From Octopus sinensis (lineage: Eukaryota), in NCBI RefSeq assembly GCF_006345805.1, contig NW_021826408.1, positions 1-13,194 on the forward strand: a stretch of 13,194 nt of DNA, given 5' to 3'. The notes under the pieces are model-generated. The model made no database searches. It saw nothing but the letters and a program-made list of their open reading frames with translations, and was not told where the DNA came from. Positions 3,180 through 13,194 of this stretch are shown piece by piece. Numbering within the stretch: the stretch's first letter is position 1; the number at the start of each line of letters is the position of its first letter. Made by a program: the position numbers and the translations under genes.

Positions 3180-3652
3180 CATACATACATACATACATAC
3201 ATACATACATACATACATACATACATGCATGCATGCATGCATACATACATACATACATACATGCATACATACATACATGCATACATTCATACATACATAC
3301 ATACATGCATGCATACATGCATGCATACATACATACATACATACATACATACATGCATGCATGCATGCATACATGCATACATACATACATACATACATAC
3401 ATGCATACATACATGCATGCATACATACATACATACATACATGCATACATACGTACGTACATACATACATGCATACATACATACATACATACGTACGTAC
3501 ATACATACATGCATACATACATACATACATACATACATGCATACATACGTACGTACATACATACATGCATACATACATACATACATACATACATACATAC
3601 ATACATACGTACGTACATACATACATACATACATACATGCATACATACCTAC
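3180..3652. repeat. (ACAT)n tract with GCAT/ACGT variants
   Basis: Directly visible. Confidence 0.95.
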
Positions 3653-3763
3653 ATAGAAAAATACCGTTATTGATGTTGAAATTCCAATGAATGATTTTGG
3701 ATCTTGGTTAGAAACAGGTTCTTTCTCTTGTGGCAAGAAATCTTGAAATAAAACTGAATAATG

Positions 3764-4174
3764 ACATACATACATACATACATACATACATACATACATA
3801 CATACATGCATGCATACATACATACATACATACATACATGCATGCATGCATACATACATGCATACATGCATACATACATACATACATACATACATACATA
3901 CATACATGCATGCATACATACATGCATACATGCATACATACATACATACATACATGCATACATACACACATACATGCATACATGCATACATACATACATA
4001 CATACATACATACATACATACATACATACATACATACATACATACGTACGTACATACATACATACATTCATACATACATACATACATACATATATACATA
4101 CATACATGCATGCATACGTACATACATACATACATACATACATACGTACGTACGTACATACATACATACATACA

Positions 4175-4205
<31 letters not shown>

Positions 4206-4230
4206 GTACATACATACGTACATACATGTA
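3764..4230. repeat. Second (ACAT)n tract with GCAT/ACGT variants
   Basis: Directly visible; separated from the first by ~110 bp of non-repeat sequence. Confidence 0.95.
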
Positions 4231-4779: not shown

Positions 4780-5301
4780 GTAAAATCAGAAGAAACACCA
4801 CCACTGCCACCGCCGAGCCGCCGCCGCCACCACCTCCATCAACACTATCATTACCACTACCACCACTACTACAACTTCCAGCACACCACCATAACAATCA
4901 CCGCAAGCATAAGCAACCATATCTACCATCTCAACCACCTACACTGAACCTCACCTCTACCACCACCACTACACAGCACTATCACCACCACCACTACTAC
5001 CACCACTACCACTACCACCACTACTACAACTTCCACCACCCCACCACCGCCACCGCCACCGCCACCGCCGCCGCCGCCGCCAACACCACCACCACCACCA
5101 TCACCACCACCACCACCACCACCACTACAACTTCCACCACAACACCATAACAATCACCACAAGCAACCATATCCACCAGCACTACCACCTACACCAAACT
5201 CCACCACTACCGCCACCACTACACAACACTATCACCACCACAACAGTCATCACTACCACCACCACCGCCACCAACGCCATCACTAGGACTGCTTTCAAGT
5301 T

Positions 5302-5333
<32 letters not shown>

Positions 5334-7860
5334 ACAACAACGCCACCACTACCGCCACACCACGATCATCTGCACCCCCACAATCATCACCATCACTAAC
5401 ACATCCACCAACACCATCACTAGCATTGCCATGAATTTCATTAACCCCATCACCATCATCGCCACCACCACCACCACTACTACCACCGCCGCCGTCGCCG
5501 CCGCCACTATCACCACCTTCACAAACCTAACCCCTAACGCCGTCACCACCACACCCACCGCGCTCCGCATCCATCATAACACTCGACCACCGTAGCGTCA
5601 ATCACCACCACCACCACAACCACCACCACCACTGCCATATAAAGATGTATATGTTTCATATCATCTCCATCATCACTTCTAGTGATTCCTAGACCCTCCC
5701 ATGCTGTAGCACCAATTACTAGCGTGTGTTCGAACCACACCCACGAGAACCAACGCCTCCACCTCTGGTGGTGCTGGTGCACCACCATCACCATCACCAT
5801 CACCACCATCACCATCACCATCACCATCGCCATCACCATCACCATCACCACCATCACCATCACCATCACCATCACCATCACCATCACCACCACCATCACC
5901 ATCACCAGCACCATCACCACCACCATCACCATCACCATCACCACCATCACCATCACCATCACCATCGCCATCACCATCACCACCACCATCACCATCACCA
6001 GCACCATCACCACCATCACCATCACCATCACCATCACCATCACCATCACCATCACCATCACCATCGCCATCACCATCACCACCACCATCACCATCACCAT
6101 CACCATCACCACCATCACCATCACCATCACCATCGCCATCACCATCACCACCACCATCACCATCACCAGCACCATCACCATCACCACCATCACCATCACC
6201 AGCACCATCACCACCACCATCACCATCGCCATCACCATCACCACCACCATCACCACCCACCATCCACCATCACCATCACCATCACCACCATCACCAGCAC
6301 CATCACCACCACCACCCATCACCATCACCATCCACCACCATCACCAACATCACCATCGCCATCACCATCACCACCACCATCACCATCACCATCACCATCA
6401 CCATCACCATCACCATCACCATCACCATCACCATCACCATCACCATCACCATCACCATCACCACCACCATCACCATCACCAGCACCATCACCATCACCAT
6501 CACCAGCACCACCATCACCATCACCATCACCATCACCATCACCATCACCATCACCATCACCATCACCAGCACCATCACCACCACCATCACCATCACCAGC
6601 ACCATCACCACCACCATCACCATCACCAGCACCACCATCACCATCACCATCACCATCACCATCACCATCACCACCACCATCACCATCACCAGCACCATCA
6701 CCAGCACCACCACCATCACCATCACCACGACCACTACTGCAACCACCACCACTACCAGCACCACCACCACCATCACCATCACCAGCACCATCACCATCAC
6801 CACCACCACCAGTACCAGCACCATCACCAGCACCATCACCACCACCAGCACCATCACCACCACCATCACCATCACCACGACCACTACTGCAACCACCACC
6901 ACTACCAGCACCACCACCACCATCACCATCACCAGCACCATCACCATCACCAGCACCATCACCACCACCAGCACCATCACCACCACCATCACCATCACCA
7001 CGACCACTACTGCAACCACCACCACTACCAGCACCACCACCATCACCATCACCAGCACCATCACCACCAGTACCAGCACCATCACTAGCACCATCACCAC
7101 CACTACCATCACCAGCAGCAGCAGCAGCACTACCACCACATCAGCAACAACAACAACACCCGCTACCATCAAAAATAGCAGCACCACCATCGTCATCAGA
7201 ACAATAACTTTCATCACCATCACCACACCGCCACCAGCACCACCATTACGACCACCACAACAACCATCATAACTACCACCATAACCACCGACATCGGCAC
7301 CACCACCACCACCACCACCACCGCCACCACCACATTAGCAACAACAACGACAACAACCGCTACCATCAACAACAGCACCACCGCCATCGTCATCAGAACA
7401 ATAACTTTCATCACCATAACCACCAACACCACCATCACCACACCACCACCAACATCCCCATCACCATCACCACAACAACCAACATAACCACCACCATAAC
7501 CACCGGCATCACCATCACCACCACCACCACCACCATTACAACCTCTATCCATCATCTAGAGTGACATACCCACATTAACTACTACCACTACAACCACTAC
7601 CATCACTGCCGCAACAACAACATTAACCATTATAACTACCACCATCACCACCACCACCACAATCACCACCACCGCCACCACCATCACTATAACTATCGCT
7701 AACCACAACCACCGCAGCCAACCATCGCCTTCACAATTGCTCTTCCCCTTCACTATTTTCAGAACCACCCACCACCATTAGAGTCAGTACTGTAAGCAAA
7801 ACCACACCCACCAGCACCGGCACCTTCACCACCACCACTATCACCACCACCACCACCACC
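4780..7860. repeat. ~3 kb CAC/CAT/CAG trinucleotide low-complexity tract with a near-pure (CACCAT)n core at ~5780-6720
   Basis: Directly visible; generates the poly-His, (TI)n, (SP)n, (GD)n and (MV)n ORFs. Confidence 0.95.
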
Positions 7861-8386
7861 TCTGCTGCCAAGATCACTACATTATCTTGTCAGACTTATA
7901 ACCTACGTGTAAACTGCCCAGCCCACAGACTGAAATCTTTAATTAACGAAGCATTTATTTAGTCAGTTACGGCCCCTTTGCATAAAAAAAAATAATAGTA
8001 ATAAATCACACGCACACACATACACATACACATTACACACATGCAAATAAATAATATCAGCTGTTAAAAAAAAATATACAAACAAGCAAGTGTTTAGTAA
8101 AAGACAAACAAGCGCATGTAATGAAACTGCAGTAACAGTGTCATACAAGACTAGTTAGCCTTTATATTCTGCCGTAGTCAGGCGGAAGAAGTGGTAAAGA
8201 GAAAACCAGCAAAGAAAAAAAATATCTAGATAATACTACAAGAGATAACTATAAGTACAACCACACCACAAGAATTAAACAAGAGACCTATTTATATATT
8301 TGCATAGTATACAGCATATATCTTTAAAATACCTTTATTAATTATATATCTATATCTGAAAAAAATTATACAGAACAACTGTGAAA

Positions 8387-8542
8387 ATGTCTCAAAATTG
8401 TTTCGCCATCGTCCAACTTTTGTTCGTGTTGTTCACAGTATGCAGTCTCTTCATTGCCACTACAGATGGTTGCTATTTCCGAAACTGTCCCATTGGTGGC
8501 AAACGAGCGACACCCATGTCAGAGCAGGGATCAAATCAAAAG
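8387..8542 (+). CDS. First coding exon of prepro-cephalotocin (oxytocin/vasopressin-family neuropeptide precursor)
   Basis: ATG at 8387 gives MSQNCFAIVQLLFVLFTVCSLFIATTDG (28-aa hydrophobic signal peptide, 8387-8470), CYFRNCPIG (Cys1-Cys6 nonapeptide, 8471-8497; the cephalotocin sequence as I recall it), GKR (8498-8506) and ATPMSEQGSNQK (neurophysin N-terminus, 8507-8542), followed by AAG|GTAAGT. The ORF-track start at 8381 is a GTG. Confidence 0.96.
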
Positions 8543-8548
8543 GTAAGT
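8543..8548 (+). other. 5' splice donor (phase 0) of the intron following the hormone exon; the intron probably runs past the window end
   Basis: AAG|GTAAGT is a perfect U2-type donor consensus. Downstream sequence turns immediately into (TTA)n and SINE sequence with an in-frame stop at 8585-8587. No intact C-x-x-C-G-P neurophysin exon was seen in 8549-13194. Confidence 0.9.
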
Positions 8549-8569
8549 GCAGTATTATTATTAGTATTA

Positions 8570-8745
8570 TCTGCCGTTACATTGTGAGTTCAAATTCCGC
8601 CGAGGTCAACTTTGCCTTTCATCCTTTCGGGGGTCGATAAATTAAGTACCAGTTACGCACTGGGGTCGATATACTCGACTTAATCCGTTTGTCTGGCCTT
8701 GTTTGTCCCCTCTGTGTTTATCCCCTTGTGGGTAGTAAAAAATAT
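8570..8745 (+). mobile_element. 5'-truncated tRNA-derived SINE (Meta-domain-like family), copy 1
   Basis: GAGTTCAAATTCCGCCGAGGTCAACTTTGCCTTTCATCCTTTCGGGGGTCGATAAATTAAGTACCAGTT...CTGGGGTCGAT aligns with the copies at 9233-9440 and 9503-9672. GTTCAAATTCC is B-box-like. Confidence 0.85.
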
Positions 8746-8848
8746 AAATATATATATATATATATAATATATATATATATATATTTTATTATTATTATTA
8801 TTATTATTATTATCATTATTATTATTGTTATTGTTATTATTATTTTGT

Positions 8849-9135
8849 GGAGGCGCAATGGCCCAGTGGTTAGAGCAGCGGACTCGCGGTTTCGATTCCC
8901 AGACCGGTCGTTGTGTGTGTTTATTGAGCGAAAACACCTAAAAGCTCCACGTGGCTCCGGCAGGGGCGACCCCTGTTGTACTCTTTCGCCCCAACTTTCT
9001 CTCACTCTTTCTTCCTGTTTCTTGTGTAACGCTGCGATGAACTGGCGTCCCGTCTAGCTGGGGGGAACCGCCTTAGAAACCGGGGAAACTGGGCCCATGA
9101 GCCTGGCTAGGCTTGAGAAGGGCACATAAATAAAA
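8849..9135 (+). mobile_element. tRNA-derived SINE with V-domain-like segment
   Basis: Pol III A box TGGCCCAGTGG (8859-8869), B-box-like GGTTTCGATTCCC (8888-8900), GCTGCGATGAACTGGCGTCCCGTCTAG (9031-9057) resembling the V-SINE domain, and an A-rich tail followed by (ATT)n. Confidence 0.75.
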
Positions 9136-9172
9136 AAAAACAATATTATTATTATTATTATTATTATTATTA

Positions 9173-9232
<60 letters not shown>

Positions 9233-9233
<1 letters not shown>

Positions 9234-9440
9234 GGCGGTGAGCTGGTAGAATCGTTAGAACACCGGGCAAAATGCTTAGCGACATTTCCTCTGTCTTCAC
9301 CTTCTCAGTTCAAATTCCGCCGCGGTTTACTTTGCCTTTCATCCGTTCGGGGTCGAAAAAAGAAGTACCAGTTGCGTACTGGGGTCGATGTAATCGACTT
9401 AACCCCTCCCCCGTTGGTCTTGTGCCAAAAATTAAAATCA
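9233..9440 (+). mobile_element. Near full-length tRNA-derived SINE (Meta-domain-like family), copy 2
   Basis: GGCGGTGAGCTGGTAGAATCGTTAG head, AGTTCAAATTCCGCC B-box-like motif, shared central domain and (ATT)n tail; aligns with copies 1 and 3. Confidence 0.85.
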
Positions 9441-9474
<34 letters not shown>

Positions 9475-9502
9475 CATTATTATTATTATTATCTTAACCT
9501 CA

Positions 9503-9672
9503 GGTTGGCAAGCTGCAGAATCTTTGGCATGCCGGAAAAAATGCTTAGCAGCATTTCTTCTGTCTTGTTACGTTCTTAGCTCAAATCTCCTCGTGGTCAA
9601 CTTTGCTTTTCGTCCTTTCGGAGTCGATAAAACAAGTGCCAGTTGAGCACTGGGGTCGATGTAATCGACTAG
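9503..9672 (+). mobile_element. More diverged tRNA-derived SINE of the same family, copy 3
   Basis: AAAATGCTTAGC...GGTCAACTTTGCTTTTCGTCCTTTCGGAGTCGATAAAACAAGTGCCAGTTGAGCACTGGGGTCGATGTAATCGACT aligns with copy 2. Confidence 0.85.
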
Positions 9673-9895
9673 CCGCATCATTTTAATCTCGTTATTTTTC
9701 TTTTGTCCCACTATGTGCAAGAAACACTTTATCCCCGTTTAAATTTGGATCCGCTCCTTGACGAACTTGCTTAAAGACCACGTGAAAAATAAAATCTAAA
9801 ATATATGTAGCTTTAAGCCCTTAAGGACAAAATTTCCTTTTGTTAATGCATTTATTTTTCAGGATTTTTGATGTGACCTTGTGTGTTGAGATAAA

Positions 9896-10054
9896 TTTTG
9901 TTGTATCCCTGGAGCGTCATTATGCTAATTTTAAATACGCACTGATTCTATTTTACTTCTTTCATAATTGATCAATAAATTACATCATAAAGAGGTGATA
10001 TAGAATCAGTACGTGTGTTTAGTATTGGCTTTATGACCCTCCCGAGACAATAAA
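9896..10054. repeat. Diverged inverted repeat (old palindromic/MITE-like element)
   Basis: Perfect core ACTGATTCTAT (9941-9951) / ATAGAATCAGT (10000-10010). Imperfect complementarity extends over arms ~9896-9965 and ~9987-10054. Confidence 0.7.
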
Positions 10055-10555
10055 GTAACACTAATTTAATGTTAATTGCCTATATATAATTTCGTAAAAT
10101 TTATGTCCTTTTTTGCTCTTGACTCTGAACAACTTTCATGTACTTGCTCATGACCTGTAATTCTTAATTTGGAGGAAATTCTAGGATTGAAGTGGGTGGG
10201 AAATTTGAAGATTCTGGTAGAGAAATATTTGAGGAAGAAAATATATCCTCCATCATTTTCATATTGCGTTTTCCTAGATTTATTTTCGACTTAATTTATG
10301 ATTTTAAGAATTTTGATATTAACTTAATATAACATTGATACTATATCAATATTATATATATATATATATATATGTATATAACCTTAACATTGATAATCTG
10401 TATTAACGTATTTTGAATACATATCTGTTATCTCCTAACACATGAAGTGTGAGGTTTTGGTATGGTAAAAATAAAAAACAAAACAAAAGAACTTAAGAAA
10501 CACTGATATAGAGATTATAAGAGATAGTATATGGATTAAAACTTCTATTTATGCA

Positions 10556-10615
10556 GTATATATATATATATATATACATACATATATCATATATATATAT
10601 ACATATATATATTTA

Positions 10616-10649
<34 letters not shown>

Positions 10650-10815
10650 ATATATATATACACCCATATATATATATATATAAATTCATATATATATATA
10701 AATTCATATATATATACACATACATATATATATATAATATATATGTATACACACATACACAAACACACACACACACACACTCACATATATATATACAAAT
10801 ATTTGTGTGTGTGTA
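10556..10815. repeat. (TA)n / (CA)n microsatellite
   Basis: Directly visible. Confidence 0.9.
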
Positions 10816-10990
10816 TGTATTTATGGAGACAAACCTCATTCCTCTATGTGATGAGCTTGAGAAATTATTAAGATATTAAGATATCTTCTTTCACATGAAA
10901 CCAATGGTAACCCTAATAGACATACACACATAAAGAAACTTTATCCACAAATGCGGTGTTGAGTGCTCATTCTCCTTGTTCAACATTTAC

Positions 10991-11184
<194 letters not shown>

Positions 11185-11382
11185 CCCCATGATAGATCGA
11201 TAGCCACTACACACACATTTTTTCTCTCCTTTCTCTCCTTGTTTTTTCTGTGTCCCTTTCTGTAGAAGAGCGTATGCTCGAAACGTGAAAGACTTTTCTC
11301 TATTTCTGAGCGTTATACTAATACATCTGTTTGTTTTGTACATCACCTGTCTTCGTCTTTTTTTTTTTTCGTAAACTCGCCC
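11185..11382 (+). mobile_element. Penelope-like terminal fragment with degenerate hammerhead motif (11256-11291)
   Basis: CUUU-CUGUAGA-A-GAGC(GUAU)GCUC-GAAAC-GUG-AAAG, then TTTCTGAGCGTTATACTAATAC; flanked by (TAGA)n and (TA)n. Same architecture as 1785-1962. Confidence 0.6.
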
Positions 11383-12039
11383 TATATATATATATATATA
11401 TATATATAGTGCTTTTTTGAAGATGTTAATGTATAGAGCGAAATCAGCTCTGACCGAGTAGAATCTCCATTCAAAGAATGCTAACTAAGGAACCAATCTT
11501 GTACTATATCTTCAGATATTATCTCTAAATGGTACTTCTGTTATGTCAATCGCTTTCTAACACAATACAATGAAATTGAAGGCAAATCTATTTATGTATG
11601 GCAGTTCAATTTCTGATGCGTTTATCTCGGCGTTACCCCGTATGTCGTTACCCTAGCTGTAATTAGGGCCCAGTGTGTGGGTGCAGTTTATTGCTGTAAG
11701 CAACGAGAGCACTGTATCTTGAACGAGTGTTTCATTAGCTTGCAACGCTGACTTCCATCCATCTCACAGTCCTGAAATTACCCAGTAATAAGTACGTCGA
11801 ACATGATTTCATGTTACCTTCGTTAAAATCTACATGAAGCCAACACTTTTAAGTCAGTTCATATAGTCCAGAAAGTAACGAGAAGAAACTATAGAAAATT
11901 TGTTAAAACTTTTATATTTACTGTTTGCAACGATTTATATATAAGAATCTGAAAATGTATTTTCCCCCACTATTACGTATATTCCTTCCTTATCCCATAC
12001 ATTGATCACCTGTTTTGTGTGCGCGTATATATATATAAT

Positions 12040-12082
<43 letters not shown>

Positions 12083-12458
12083 TCAAAGGACATACTAAGT
12101 ATGTCTACCTGCTTGAAATAACAGTCAAAACTCTTATTAAATCGCCAAAAATACACTGATGAAAACTACAGAAATCAAACGAAGTCAAAATTAGGTTAAG
12201 ACAATCTACTAACATATCTGGGCTCACGTGGACCGGATTCTGCACTGGCAAAATAAGCCTTAGCTTCTTCACCACGCGTTACCATGATTAGAGATTCCCA
12301 ACCCATCGCTTTGAACAGATTCGTTCGCTTTGAACTGATTCGTTTCGCGCCGAAATCACAGCAGCCATCAGTGTAAAATACTCTCGATATAATTCACCAT
12401 TGGATAATAATAGAATTACTGACACCTTCGTAAATTAATATATATGTGTATATATATA

Positions 12459-12508
<50 letters not shown>

Positions 12509-12729
12509 TATATATTATATAAGTAAATCTGTAAATCAAAAGTAGGAGAAGAGAACAACAACGGAATCGAACAAAACACAACATGCGGAAAAATAGACAA
12601 TAACGTAAACGGTTAACATAAAAAATGGCAAACAGGGCAGAAACAAGATAGACAGACGATTCACAGCAGATTTCCTACATACATACATAACTGAAAATTA
12701 TAGAAAAACAAACGTCGAAGACAGGTGTA

Positions 12730-12850
12730 TTAACCTCATGGCTCCATGTTCAGTCCTAATACAAGGCTCCTAGTCGACGAAAGCCTTGTGAGTAGATTTG
12801 GTAGATGGAAACTAAAAACTTCGTTGACGGAAACTGAAAGAAGCCCGTTA
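12730..12850 (+). mobile_element. Rearranged fragment of the SINE family seen at 1991-2125
   Basis: AAAGCCTTGTGAGTAGATTTGGTAGATGGAAACT...GACGGAAACTGAAAGAAGCCCGT matches ~2075-2121, with an internal deletion and a duplicated GGAAACT. Confidence 0.75.
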
Positions 12851-13157
12851 TAGTGAGATGGGAAGCGACCTGTGAAGGCGTAAGTAGGAAACCTTGTTAT
12901 AGGAAGAGGAAATACTTAGATAAATCCACTATATACCATGCTCCGGCATCCAGTAGCCACATGAAAATTCGATACGGCTTACAGAGGACTCCTTCCTTTA
13001 TAATATACATAGCAGTTAATTTCGTTATCCTTACCAAGGAAACACCAGAACTCTTTCAAAACAGATTTAGTATTCAATAGACAAAGGAGAGATCGCCAGT
13101 GTTTCAGGGACAGTATTGGAGAAAGAACAGACATTGCAGCAGAGAACATCTCCATGA

Positions 13158-13194
13158 GAACTCCGTCTCTCGAACTCCGTCTCTCGAACTCCGA
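13158..13194. repeat. 14-bp tandem repeat (GAACTCCGTCTCTC)n, possibly continuing beyond the window
   Basis: Two perfect units (13158-13171, 13172-13185) and a partial third. Confidence 0.85.

What the first reader, a model, noticed from the sequence alone, without database searches (positions are those of the whole stretch)
8387..8548. Cephalotocin gene has an intron at the ancestral oxytocin/vasopressin position
Seen: the coding sequence stops at a perfect phase-0 donor (AAG|GTAAGT) 12 residues after GKR, before any neurophysin cysteine, and is followed by >4.6 kb of repeat-filled DNA. Established: vertebrate OXT/AVP intron 1 is phase 0, just before the first neurophysin Cys. From memory (to verify): octopus cephalotocin and octopressin coding regions were reported as intronless from genomic PCR. 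Inference: this locus keeps the ancestral structure, so the earlier result could reflect a processed retrocopy or failure to amplify a long microsatellite-rich intron. Current genome annotations may already show this.
Basis: partly seen in the sequence, partly recalled or inferred. Interest (0 to 1): 0.75.

Follow-up and report, generated by a model that had tools for sequence, protein, structure and literature searches.

The report
Two octopus hormones, one shared gene
The octopus oxytocin-like hormone cephalotocin is encoded by a short first exon that is spliced onto the same carrier-protein exon that the second hormone, octopressin, uses, so the two hormones most likely come from one intron-containing gene and not from the two intronless genes described in the literature.

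Summary
The intron is real. The window is a whole unplaced contig; 8387-8542 is cephalotocin exon 1, ending at a phase-0 donor. The neurophysin exon lies on G000:C22, and RNA-type contigs of two studies go from 8542 straight into it. Cephalotocin and octopressin precursors are identical from that exon onward, RNA-type contigs of three studies fork into two 5' ends at its acceptor, and O. bimaculoides database proteins show all four combinations as isoforms X1-X4. The deposited 'cephalotocin-del' is an exact exon-2 skip. So the two hormones are most likely alternative first exons of one gene. Reviews of 2018-2023 still state duplicated genes, one of them single-exon genes. Published 'cephalotocin' qPCR primers lie in the shared exon, which likely explains an unreconciled result. 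No retrocopy was seen. Limits: the octopressin exon is missing from this assembly, physical linkage is inferred, the 2003 paper was not readable, and automated annotation already implies the structure. This scan's earlier notes held nothing on it.

The parts
8113..8386 (+). Transcribed 5' leader of the cephalotocin first exon (at least this long; true start not shown)
   Evidence: Contig of run X9 covers 8113-8542 and of X18 8219-8542 without a joint; contigs cannot show a start
8387..8470 (+). Exon 1, signal peptide (residues 1-28; hydrophobic leader, judged by eye and by homology)
8471..8497 (+). Exon 1, cephalotocin nonapeptide CYFRNCPIG
   Evidence: same peptide in Table 1 of PMC7181382
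8498..8506 (+). Exon 1, Gly-Lys-Arg amidation and cleavage signal
8507..8542 (+). Exon 1, first 12 residues of the neurophysin chain, specific to the cephalotocin isoform
8543..8548 (+). Phase-0 splice donor GTAAGT, used in RNA
8543..13194 (+). 5' part of intron 1, cut off by the contig end. The rest of the gene is outside the window, on G000:C22 minus strand: shared exon 2 at 28625207-28625006 (202 nt), last exon 3a coding 28610983-28610880, last exon 3b coding 28585979-28585879; 100-N gap at 28638927-28639026, 13,719 nt upstream of exon 2

Best explanation
The window holds the cephalotocin first exon, which is spliced onto a neurophysin exon that octopressin uses as well, so the two hormones are most likely alternative first exons of one large gene that also has two alternative last exons. 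SHOWN: exon 1 (signal peptide, nonapeptide, GKR, phase-0 donor); one 202-nt exon 2 on C22 with a phase-1 donor; last exons 3a (14.0 kb downstream) and 3b (39.0 kb downstream) in the same orientation with no gap and no further peptide or neurophysin exon between them; splicing of exon 1 to exon 2 and of exon 2 to 3a in RNA-type contigs; a second 5' arm entering the same acceptor. INFERRED: that the second arm is the octopressin exon (protein identity plus hand decoding of the loose end); that both first exons lie upstream of exon 2 on one chromosome, probably in the C22 gap, giving an intron 1 of at least about 18 kb; that each first exon has its own promoter, which would explain the different published expression domains of the two peptides; that the layout arose by separate tandem duplications of exon 1 (with promoter) and of exon 3, 3a being the ancestral-like copy; that the 2003 'single-exon' PCR products came from cDNA-like template, since ordinary PCR cannot cross introns of this size.
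For: (1) One neurophysin match over the Pfam cut-off in the 2.7-Gb assembly; whole-protein searches with cephalotocin and with octopressin hit the same exon 2 and the same exon 3b. (2) Within a species the two precursors are 67/67 identical over exon 2 and 33/33 or 34/34 over the last exon, in 3 of 3 pairs, and carry the same species-specific substitutions, while the first-exon parts differ; identity starts exactly at the exon-2 acceptor. (3) O. bimaculoides proteins labelled isoform X1-X4 are the 2 x 2 combinations; O. vulgaris has octopressin+3a and octopressin+3b under neighbouring accessions. (4) In 3 of 3 RNA-guessed runs from three studies two different contigs end on the first 30 nt of exon 2 and one contig carries exon 2 into 3a; in X9 one arm (458 nt, depth 31.1) is the contig that covers window 8113-8542. 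Decoded by hand, the mixed loose-end consensus agrees at all 30 places with a mix of the cephalotocin end and codons for the octopressin end RSNIPATEPRQ. (5) Exon 1 + exon 2 + 3b translates to Q76DN0 at 152/152; exon 1 joined directly to the 3b acceptor gives the deposited 86-aa 'cephalotocin-del' at 85/86, an exact exon-2 skip. (6) DNA-type runs cross exon 2 (X2, 76% read) and the exon-1 donor (X3) in one piece with no fork.
Against: The octopressin first exon is not in this assembly (the last pattern did find the window's exon), and the window's contig shows no unique overlap with C22, so physical linkage and exon order are not shown here. The genome search scores only its best candidates (4). 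The exon 1-exon 2 contigs carry only 28-30 nt on the exon-2 side, just under the tool's 31-letter bar for a bridge; runs are contigs, 'RNA' is the tool's guess, and X2 and X3 may be or resemble the assembly's source. X11 laid nothing on exon 1. No contig showed exon 2 joined to 3b (0 of 3 runs); 3b rests on deposited proteins. I saw isoform labels and sequences, not gene coordinates. A published genomic PCR study says the opposite and I could not read it. In the squid Todarodes two precursors have clearly different neurophysins (PMC10172372 supplement), so true gene duplicates do exist in cephalopods.
Confidence: 0.9

Rival explanations
1. Two complete tandem genes, kept identical from exon 2 onward by gene conversion (as proposed for mammalian OXT/AVP exon 2) and collapsed into one in the assemblies.
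For: High exon-2 identity between paralogues is known in vertebrates (PMC2656470 passages). The assembly has a gap just upstream of exon 2 and lacks the octopressin exon. I could not compare exon-1 and exon-2 depth within one DNA run (different runs).
Against: It would need identical copies of exon 2, 3a, 3b and the 3a UTR in two species, with identity starting exactly at the splice acceptor; no bubble or other letter in exon 2 in 4 of 4 runs; one exon 2, then 3a, then 3b on gap-free sequence; four isoforms numbered as one series in O. bimaculoides.
Confidence: 0.05
2. One reading: besides the intron-containing locus, intronless processed copies of cephalotocin and octopressin exist and were what the 2003 genomic PCR amplified. 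(Not exclusive of the one-gene model.)
For: The published single-exon result itself (PMC7181382). The assembly is incomplete at this very locus.
Against: No second copy of exon 1 or of exon 2 in the assembly; no loose end or fork at 8542 in DNA run X3 (whole run read) nor at the exon-2 borders in X2 (76% read). Two separate retrocopies would be needed. Contigs show presence, not absence, and only two DNA-type runs were laid.
Confidence: 0.08
3. The peptide exons are unlinked to the neurophysin exon and are joined to it by trans-splicing.
For: In this assembly exon 1 is on another contig than exon 2, with no overlap found.
Against: The contig is a 13-kb unplaced piece full of simple repeats, there is a gap of the right orientation and place 13.7 kb upstream of exon 2, and all four O. 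bimaculoides isoforms are recorded on a contig of the same length, 37,717,999.
Confidence: 0.02

Closest known systems
Octopus cephalotocin (Q76DN0) and octopressin (Q76DN1), described as two single-exon genes (Kanda et al. 2003, seen only as a title and as summarised in PMC7181382)
   Same: Same precursor: spliced exons give Q76DN0 at 152/152.
   Different: Not single-exon and most likely not two genes: three coding exons per transcript, introns of 14-39 kb and probably over 18 kb, one shared neurophysin exon, and a last exon (3a) that the 2003 sequences lack.
Canonical bilaterian VP/OT precursor gene (three exons, phase-0 then phase-1 intron; PMC10532012, PMC2656470; Aplysia two introns, PMC10067623)
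   Same: Signal peptide-nonapeptide-GKR-neurophysin order, 14 neurophysin Cys, intron phases 0 and 1 around a 202-nt middle exon.
   Different: First and last exons are each present in two alternative copies; one locus would give two hormones that act on different receptors (CTR1/2 and OPR, PMC7181382).
Vertebrate OXT and AVP tandem genes
   Same: Two related nonapeptides with distinct expression and receptors; near-identical neurophysin middle part.
   Different: Vertebrates duplicated the whole gene; here only the promoter/peptide exon and the last exon appear duplicated and the middle exon is literally shared.
RefSeq gene model of O. bimaculoides 'conopressin/neurophysin-like' isoforms X1-X4 (XP_014771381.1, ...389.1, ...397.1, ...402.1)
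   Same: Automated annotation already lists the same 2 x 2 isoform set.
   Different: It does not name the peptides; a 2023 paper lists these isoforms in a supplementary tree yet states that the two genes arose by duplication (PMC10172372).
Genes that give two hormones by alternative exons (calcitonin/CGRP, insect orcokinin A/B) and variable-first-exon/constant-exon loci (UGT1A, clustered protocadherins); all recalled, not looked up
   Same: Exon choice decides the active product from one locus.
   Different: In calcitonin/CGRP the first exons are shared and the peptide exons are 3'; here the hormone sits in the variable first exon and the carrier is the constant part.

Membership tests
Oxytocin/vasopressin precursor family | Cys1-Cys6 nonapeptide directly after the leader, followed by Gly-Lys-Arg | tested here: met
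   CYFRNCPIG-GKR at 8471-8506; aligned with mollusc and vertebrate precursors
Oxytocin/vasopressin precursor family | Neurophysin domain with 14 Cys (PF00184) | tested here: met
   PF00184 65.5 bits on C22 exon 2, 69-72 bits on 4 of 4 full precursors; 14 invariant Cys from C53 to C128
Oxytocin/vasopressin precursor family | Cleavable N-terminal signal peptide | not testable with these tools
   No predictor on hand; hydrophobic 28-residue leader ending before Cys29, as in homologues
Canonical three-exon VP/OT gene | Phase-0 intron before the first neurophysin Cys, phase-1 intron after the CC motif | tested here: met
   pattern stated in PMC10532012; a fox OXT isoform carries an in-frame insertion at the same first position, read by me as intron sequence
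Canonical three-exon VP/OT gene | One peptide exon and one last exon per neurophysin exon | tested here: not met
   Two last exons on C22; two 5' arms in RNA-type contigs
Single-exon cephalotocin gene as published in 2003 | Uninterrupted coding sequence in genomic DNA | tested here: not met
   Three separated exons with canonical splice sites; DNA-type contigs run into the introns
Processed retrocopy | Exon-exon junctions present in genomic DNA | tested here: not met
   None in the assembly or in 2 of 2 DNA-type runs; contigs cannot prove absence
Alternative-first-exon (variable/constant) locus | Two different first exons spliced to one acceptor | tested here: met
   Fork at the exon-2 acceptor in 3 of 3 RNA-guessed runs; protein identity from that point
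Alternative-first-exon (variable/constant) locus | Constant exon is single copy | tested here: met
   depth ratio not measured, so a perfect collapse is not fully excluded
Alternative-first-exon (variable/constant) locus | Both first exons lie in cis upstream of the constant exon, each with its own promoter | tested here: inconclusive
   Exon 1 is on an unplaced contig, octopressin exon is absent from the assembly; supported only by isoform labels of another species; promoters not tested

The most novel reading that the evidence does not exclude
Coleoid cephalopods did not get their celebrated oxytocin/vasopressin pair by duplicating the gene as vertebrates did: one gene swaps promoter-plus-hormone first exons onto a shared neurophysin, the same layout gives sepiatocin and pro-sepiatocin in cuttlefish and so predates the octopod-decapod split, and octopods added a second switch at the last exon that yields two neurophysin tails. 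It would be an oxytocin-family gene that makes two different hormones, a layout I found in none of the papers searched.
Probability: 0.6. Interest if true: 0.75.

Novelty: new variant of a known kind. Interest (0 to 1): 0.63.

Why it matters
It would correct two statements repeated in reviews (single-exon genes; a gene duplication paralleling vertebrate oxytocin and vasopressin) and give a different route to two hormones: duplication of the promoter and peptide exon alone. It has a practical edge: any probe, primer, antibody or gene-level RNA-seq count aimed at the neurophysin part measures both hormones. The 'cephalotocin' qPCR primers of PMC5736919 both lie in the shared exon, which likely explains why that study found cephalotocin in the gastric ganglion and was 'unable to reconcile' it with earlier work that found only octopressin there. 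Knock-outs or in situ work must target exon 1. It also explains database models that lack the hormone altogether (P0005, P0011).

Tried and rejected
Misassembly or a dead orphan exon: rejected; exon 1 is intact, spliced in RNA-type contigs and continuous with its intron in a DNA run. Downstream exons inside the window: none; the one nonapeptide-GKR motif in six frames of the window and 200 kb of C22 is this exon. Joining the contig to C22 by overlap: only repeat matches. Octopressin exon 1 in G000: protein search gave one weak unrelated hit (E 1.76), one pattern none, another 5 matches of which 1 is the window exon and 4 lack the first Cys and a leader. L002 (E 3.5) and L005 (E 0.31) are weak hits that I set aside; L002 read as repeat-rich DNA, L005 was not read. 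Pro-sepiatocin precursor: not among the 24 hits nor, by peptide motif, among the stored proteins including the 150 listed of 211, so the cuttlefish test could not be run. Paper search was swamped by generic splicing papers and is uninformative. Papers not held: Kanda 2003, Kanda 2005, Henry 2013 and the octopus genome paper's supplement under the id tried. Sakamoto 2015 and the oyster and insect surveys had nothing on this gene's structure. No folds or complexes were run: the protein family is not in doubt.

Full report
OBSERVATION. The window is the whole contig G000:C2879 of a 2.7-Gb octopus-type assembly. Bases 8387-8542 are a 52-codon frame: a hydrophobic leader, CYFRNCPIG, GKR and 12 more residues, ending AAG|GTAAGT in phase 0. 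It equals residues 1-52 of the O. vulgaris cephalotocin precursor Q76DN0 (P0001). 4,652 nt remain to the contig end, with interspersed repeats and microsatellites. The exon has no second copy in the assembly by DNA or protein search.

THE REST OF THE GENE. Pfam PF00184 gave 2 matches among 4 scored candidates, 1 over the cut-off: G000:C22 minus strand. This is a 202-nt exon, 28625207-28625006, with a pyrimidine-rich AG acceptor directly before the first neurophysin Cys codon and a phase-1 GTAAGT donor. I fetched 200 kb around it. Downstream lie two last exons with good acceptors: 3a (coding 28610983-28610880, intron 14,022 nt) and 3b (coding 28585979-28585879, intron 39,026 nt). The only gaps in the 200 kb are 100-N runs at 28569461-560 and 28638927-9026, so exon 2, 3a and 3b are on gap-free sequence; tblastn with 10 mollusc-type precursors found no other peptide or neurophysin exon there. 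The upstream gap is 13,719 nt from the exon-2 acceptor. If the window's contig belongs in it (inferred; no unique overlap), intron 1 is at least 18.4 kb. Exon 1 + 2 + 3b translates to Q76DN0 at 152/152; exon 1 + 2 + 3a matches O. bimaculoides isoform X1 at 151/153.

SPLICING IN PUBLIC RUNS. One search listed 24 runs, 19 holding half or more of the sampled words; I laid six of them (all Logan contigs; 'RNA' is the tool's guess). On window 7900-8568, X9 and X18 (two studies) leave the genome at 8542 and continue with the first 28 nt of exon 2; X11 laid nothing; DNA run X3, which may be the assembly's source, crosses the donor in one piece with no loose end. On exon 2, 3 of 3 RNA-guessed runs (X6, X9, X11; three studies) show the same picture: one contig covers the exon and goes on into 3a (loose end maps to C22 28610954-983), and two different contigs end on its first 30 nt; X2 spans the exon and both intron flanks in one piece. 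One X9 arm (458 nt, depth 31.1) is the contig that covers window 8113-8542. The other arm is 813-823 nt long. The tool printed only a mixed consensus of the two loose ends; decoded by hand, it differs from the cephalotocin end at 13 of 30 places, and all 30 places fit a mix with codons for the octopressin end RSNIPATEPRQ. Caveat: the exon 1-2 contigs have 28-30 letters on the exon-2 side, under the tool's 31-letter bar, as expected when contigs break at a fork. No run showed exon 2 joined to 3b.

ONE GENE. The cluster look-ups changed the question. Octopressin Q76DN1 is identical to cephalotocin from the first residue of exon 2 to the C-terminus; so are the O. bimaculoides pairs, which share their own substitutions in the last exon (67/67 and 33/33 or 34/34 in 3 of 3 pairs). 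The O. bimaculoides proteins labelled X1-X4 are cephalotocin+3a, cephalotocin+3b, octopressin+3a and octopressin+3b; O. vulgaris CAI9739012/11 are octopressin+3a/3b; the two O. sinensis models start at the Met inside exon 2 and have no hormone. Searching G000 with octopressin hits the same exon 2 and 3b as cephalotocin. Its own first exon is missing from this assembly (the pattern found the window exon as a positive control). Finally, 'cephalotocin-del' (Q76DM9, BAC82437.1, accession next to those of the two precursors; 86 aa) is reproduced at 85/86 by joining exon 1 directly to the 3b acceptor: a deposited sequence that skips precisely the genomic exon 2, which is hard to obtain from an intronless gene.

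MECHANISM. Most likely: two promoter-plus-first-exon units, each encoding leader, nonapeptide, GKR and a short linker and each ending in a phase-0 donor, splice to one neurophysin exon; a choice between two terminal exons gives two neurophysin tails; exon 2 is sometimes skipped. Separate promoters are inferred from the published difference in expression (octopressin widespread, cephalotocin mainly in the ventral median vasomotor lobe; PMC7181382). History (inferred): the tails of 8 of 8 non-octopod precursors tested (Sepia, a decapod-like one, chiton, gastropod, oyster, three unnamed) score higher against 3a than 3b, while the Argonauta tail matches 3b (80 against 22), so 3a is ancestral-like and 3b an octopod copy older than the Octopus-Argonauta split. 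The octopressin first exon is closer to Sepia sepiatocin (119) than to cephalotocin (65), so the two first exons are older than the octopod-decapod split. Unnamed decapod-like proteins P0016 and P0018 read exon 2 out into intron-like sequence at both of the same borders. In the squid Todarodes, oegopressin 1 carries the pro-sepiatocin peptide on a neurophysin that by eye matches the sepiatocin one at 57 of 67 places with a 3a-like tail, which fits a shared exon in decapods; but oegopressin 2 has a clearly different neurophysin, a true second gene (PMC10172372 supplement). I recall that Henry et al. 2013 found the neurophysin identical in the two Sepia precursors; the paper was not held and this is untested.

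THE 2003 RESULT. I could not read Kanda et al. 2003; I saw its title in reference lists and the statement in PMC7181382 that both genes comprise single coding exons and arose by clade-specific duplication. No retrocopy appears in the assembly or in the two DNA-type runs. With introns of tens of kilobases, ordinary PCR would give no product from the real locus, so a trace of cDNA or plasmid would be the only band; this is inference, and polymorphic retrocopies are not excluded.

A PUBLISHED PUZZLE. PMC5736919 reported cephalotocin mRNA in the gastric ganglion and was 'unable to reconcile' this with earlier work that found only octopressin there. Its two cephalotocin primers (Table 2) match L001 1562-1581 and 1685-1704 exactly, both inside exon 2 (1503-1704); the product would be 143 nt against 142 stated. 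The assay therefore cannot tell the two hormones apart.

LITERATURE. Ten searches of the open library. Passages read: PMC7181382, PMC2656470, PMC10532012, PMC9144402, PMC10172372 (plus a term search of its 3 supplements), PMC5736919 (plus section 13), PMC10067623, PMC4585917, PMC6062618, PMC5153645, PMC4200219; the other listed papers were seen as search rows only. PMC6062618 (2018), PMC7181382 (2020), PMC9144402 (2022) and PMC10172372 (2023) speak of duplicated or two genes; none of the passages read describes one gene. [quoted passage not shown] Automated annotation has held the four isoforms under accessions of the XP_0147 series, so the structure is implicit in databases.

VERDICT. Observation confirmed. 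The intron alone is ancestral and implicitly annotated. The finding worth keeping is the one-gene, two-hormone layout (0.9 for Octopus), which contradicts current reviews and explains a conflicting expression result. New variant of a known kind; interest 0.63.

Noticed in passing
G000:C22:28610983-28610880 (L017), minus strand: Alternative last exon 3a, ancestral-like, was the only continuation of exon 2 in 3 of 3 RNA-guessed runs, whereas the classical deposited precursors Q76DN0 and Q76DN1 both end in the derived exon 3b.
   Followed up: yes
L001:1562-1704: Both published 'cephalotocin' qPCR primers of PMC5736919 lie in the shared exon 2.
   Followed up: yes
P0010 (Q76DM9): 'Cephalotocin-del' is an exon-2 skip: intact hormone and GKR but a frameshifted 34-residue tail and no neurophysin; whether it yields secreted peptide is unknown.
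   Followed up: partly
window 5783-7532: A 1.75-kb (CACCAT)n array of about 295 copies, plus (CATA)n at 3180-4227 and (ACC)n at 4959-5273, upstream of exon 1; such repeats may be why the contig is unplaced. The array ends about 580 nt before the furthest RNA-type cover.
   Followed up: no
window 8570-8746, 8846-9140, 9165-9470: Short interspersed repeats at the start of intron 1 with many copies in the 200 kb of C22 examined; SINE-like, not classified.
   Followed up: no
P0005, P0011 (O. sinensis database models): Both annotated isoforms start at the Met inside exon 2 and lack signal peptide and hormone, as expected if first exons were not assembled next to exon 2.
   Followed up: partly
PMC10172372 supplement, file 2: Squid oegopressin 2 has its own neurophysin: a true second VP/OT gene in a decapod; no such paralogue was found in G000 (best candidates only).
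   Followed up: partly
PMC2656470 Table 3: That table gives cephalotocin as Cys-Phe-Ile-Arg..., which differs from the genomic and Q76DN0 sequence CYFRNCPIG; probably a table error.
   Followed up: no
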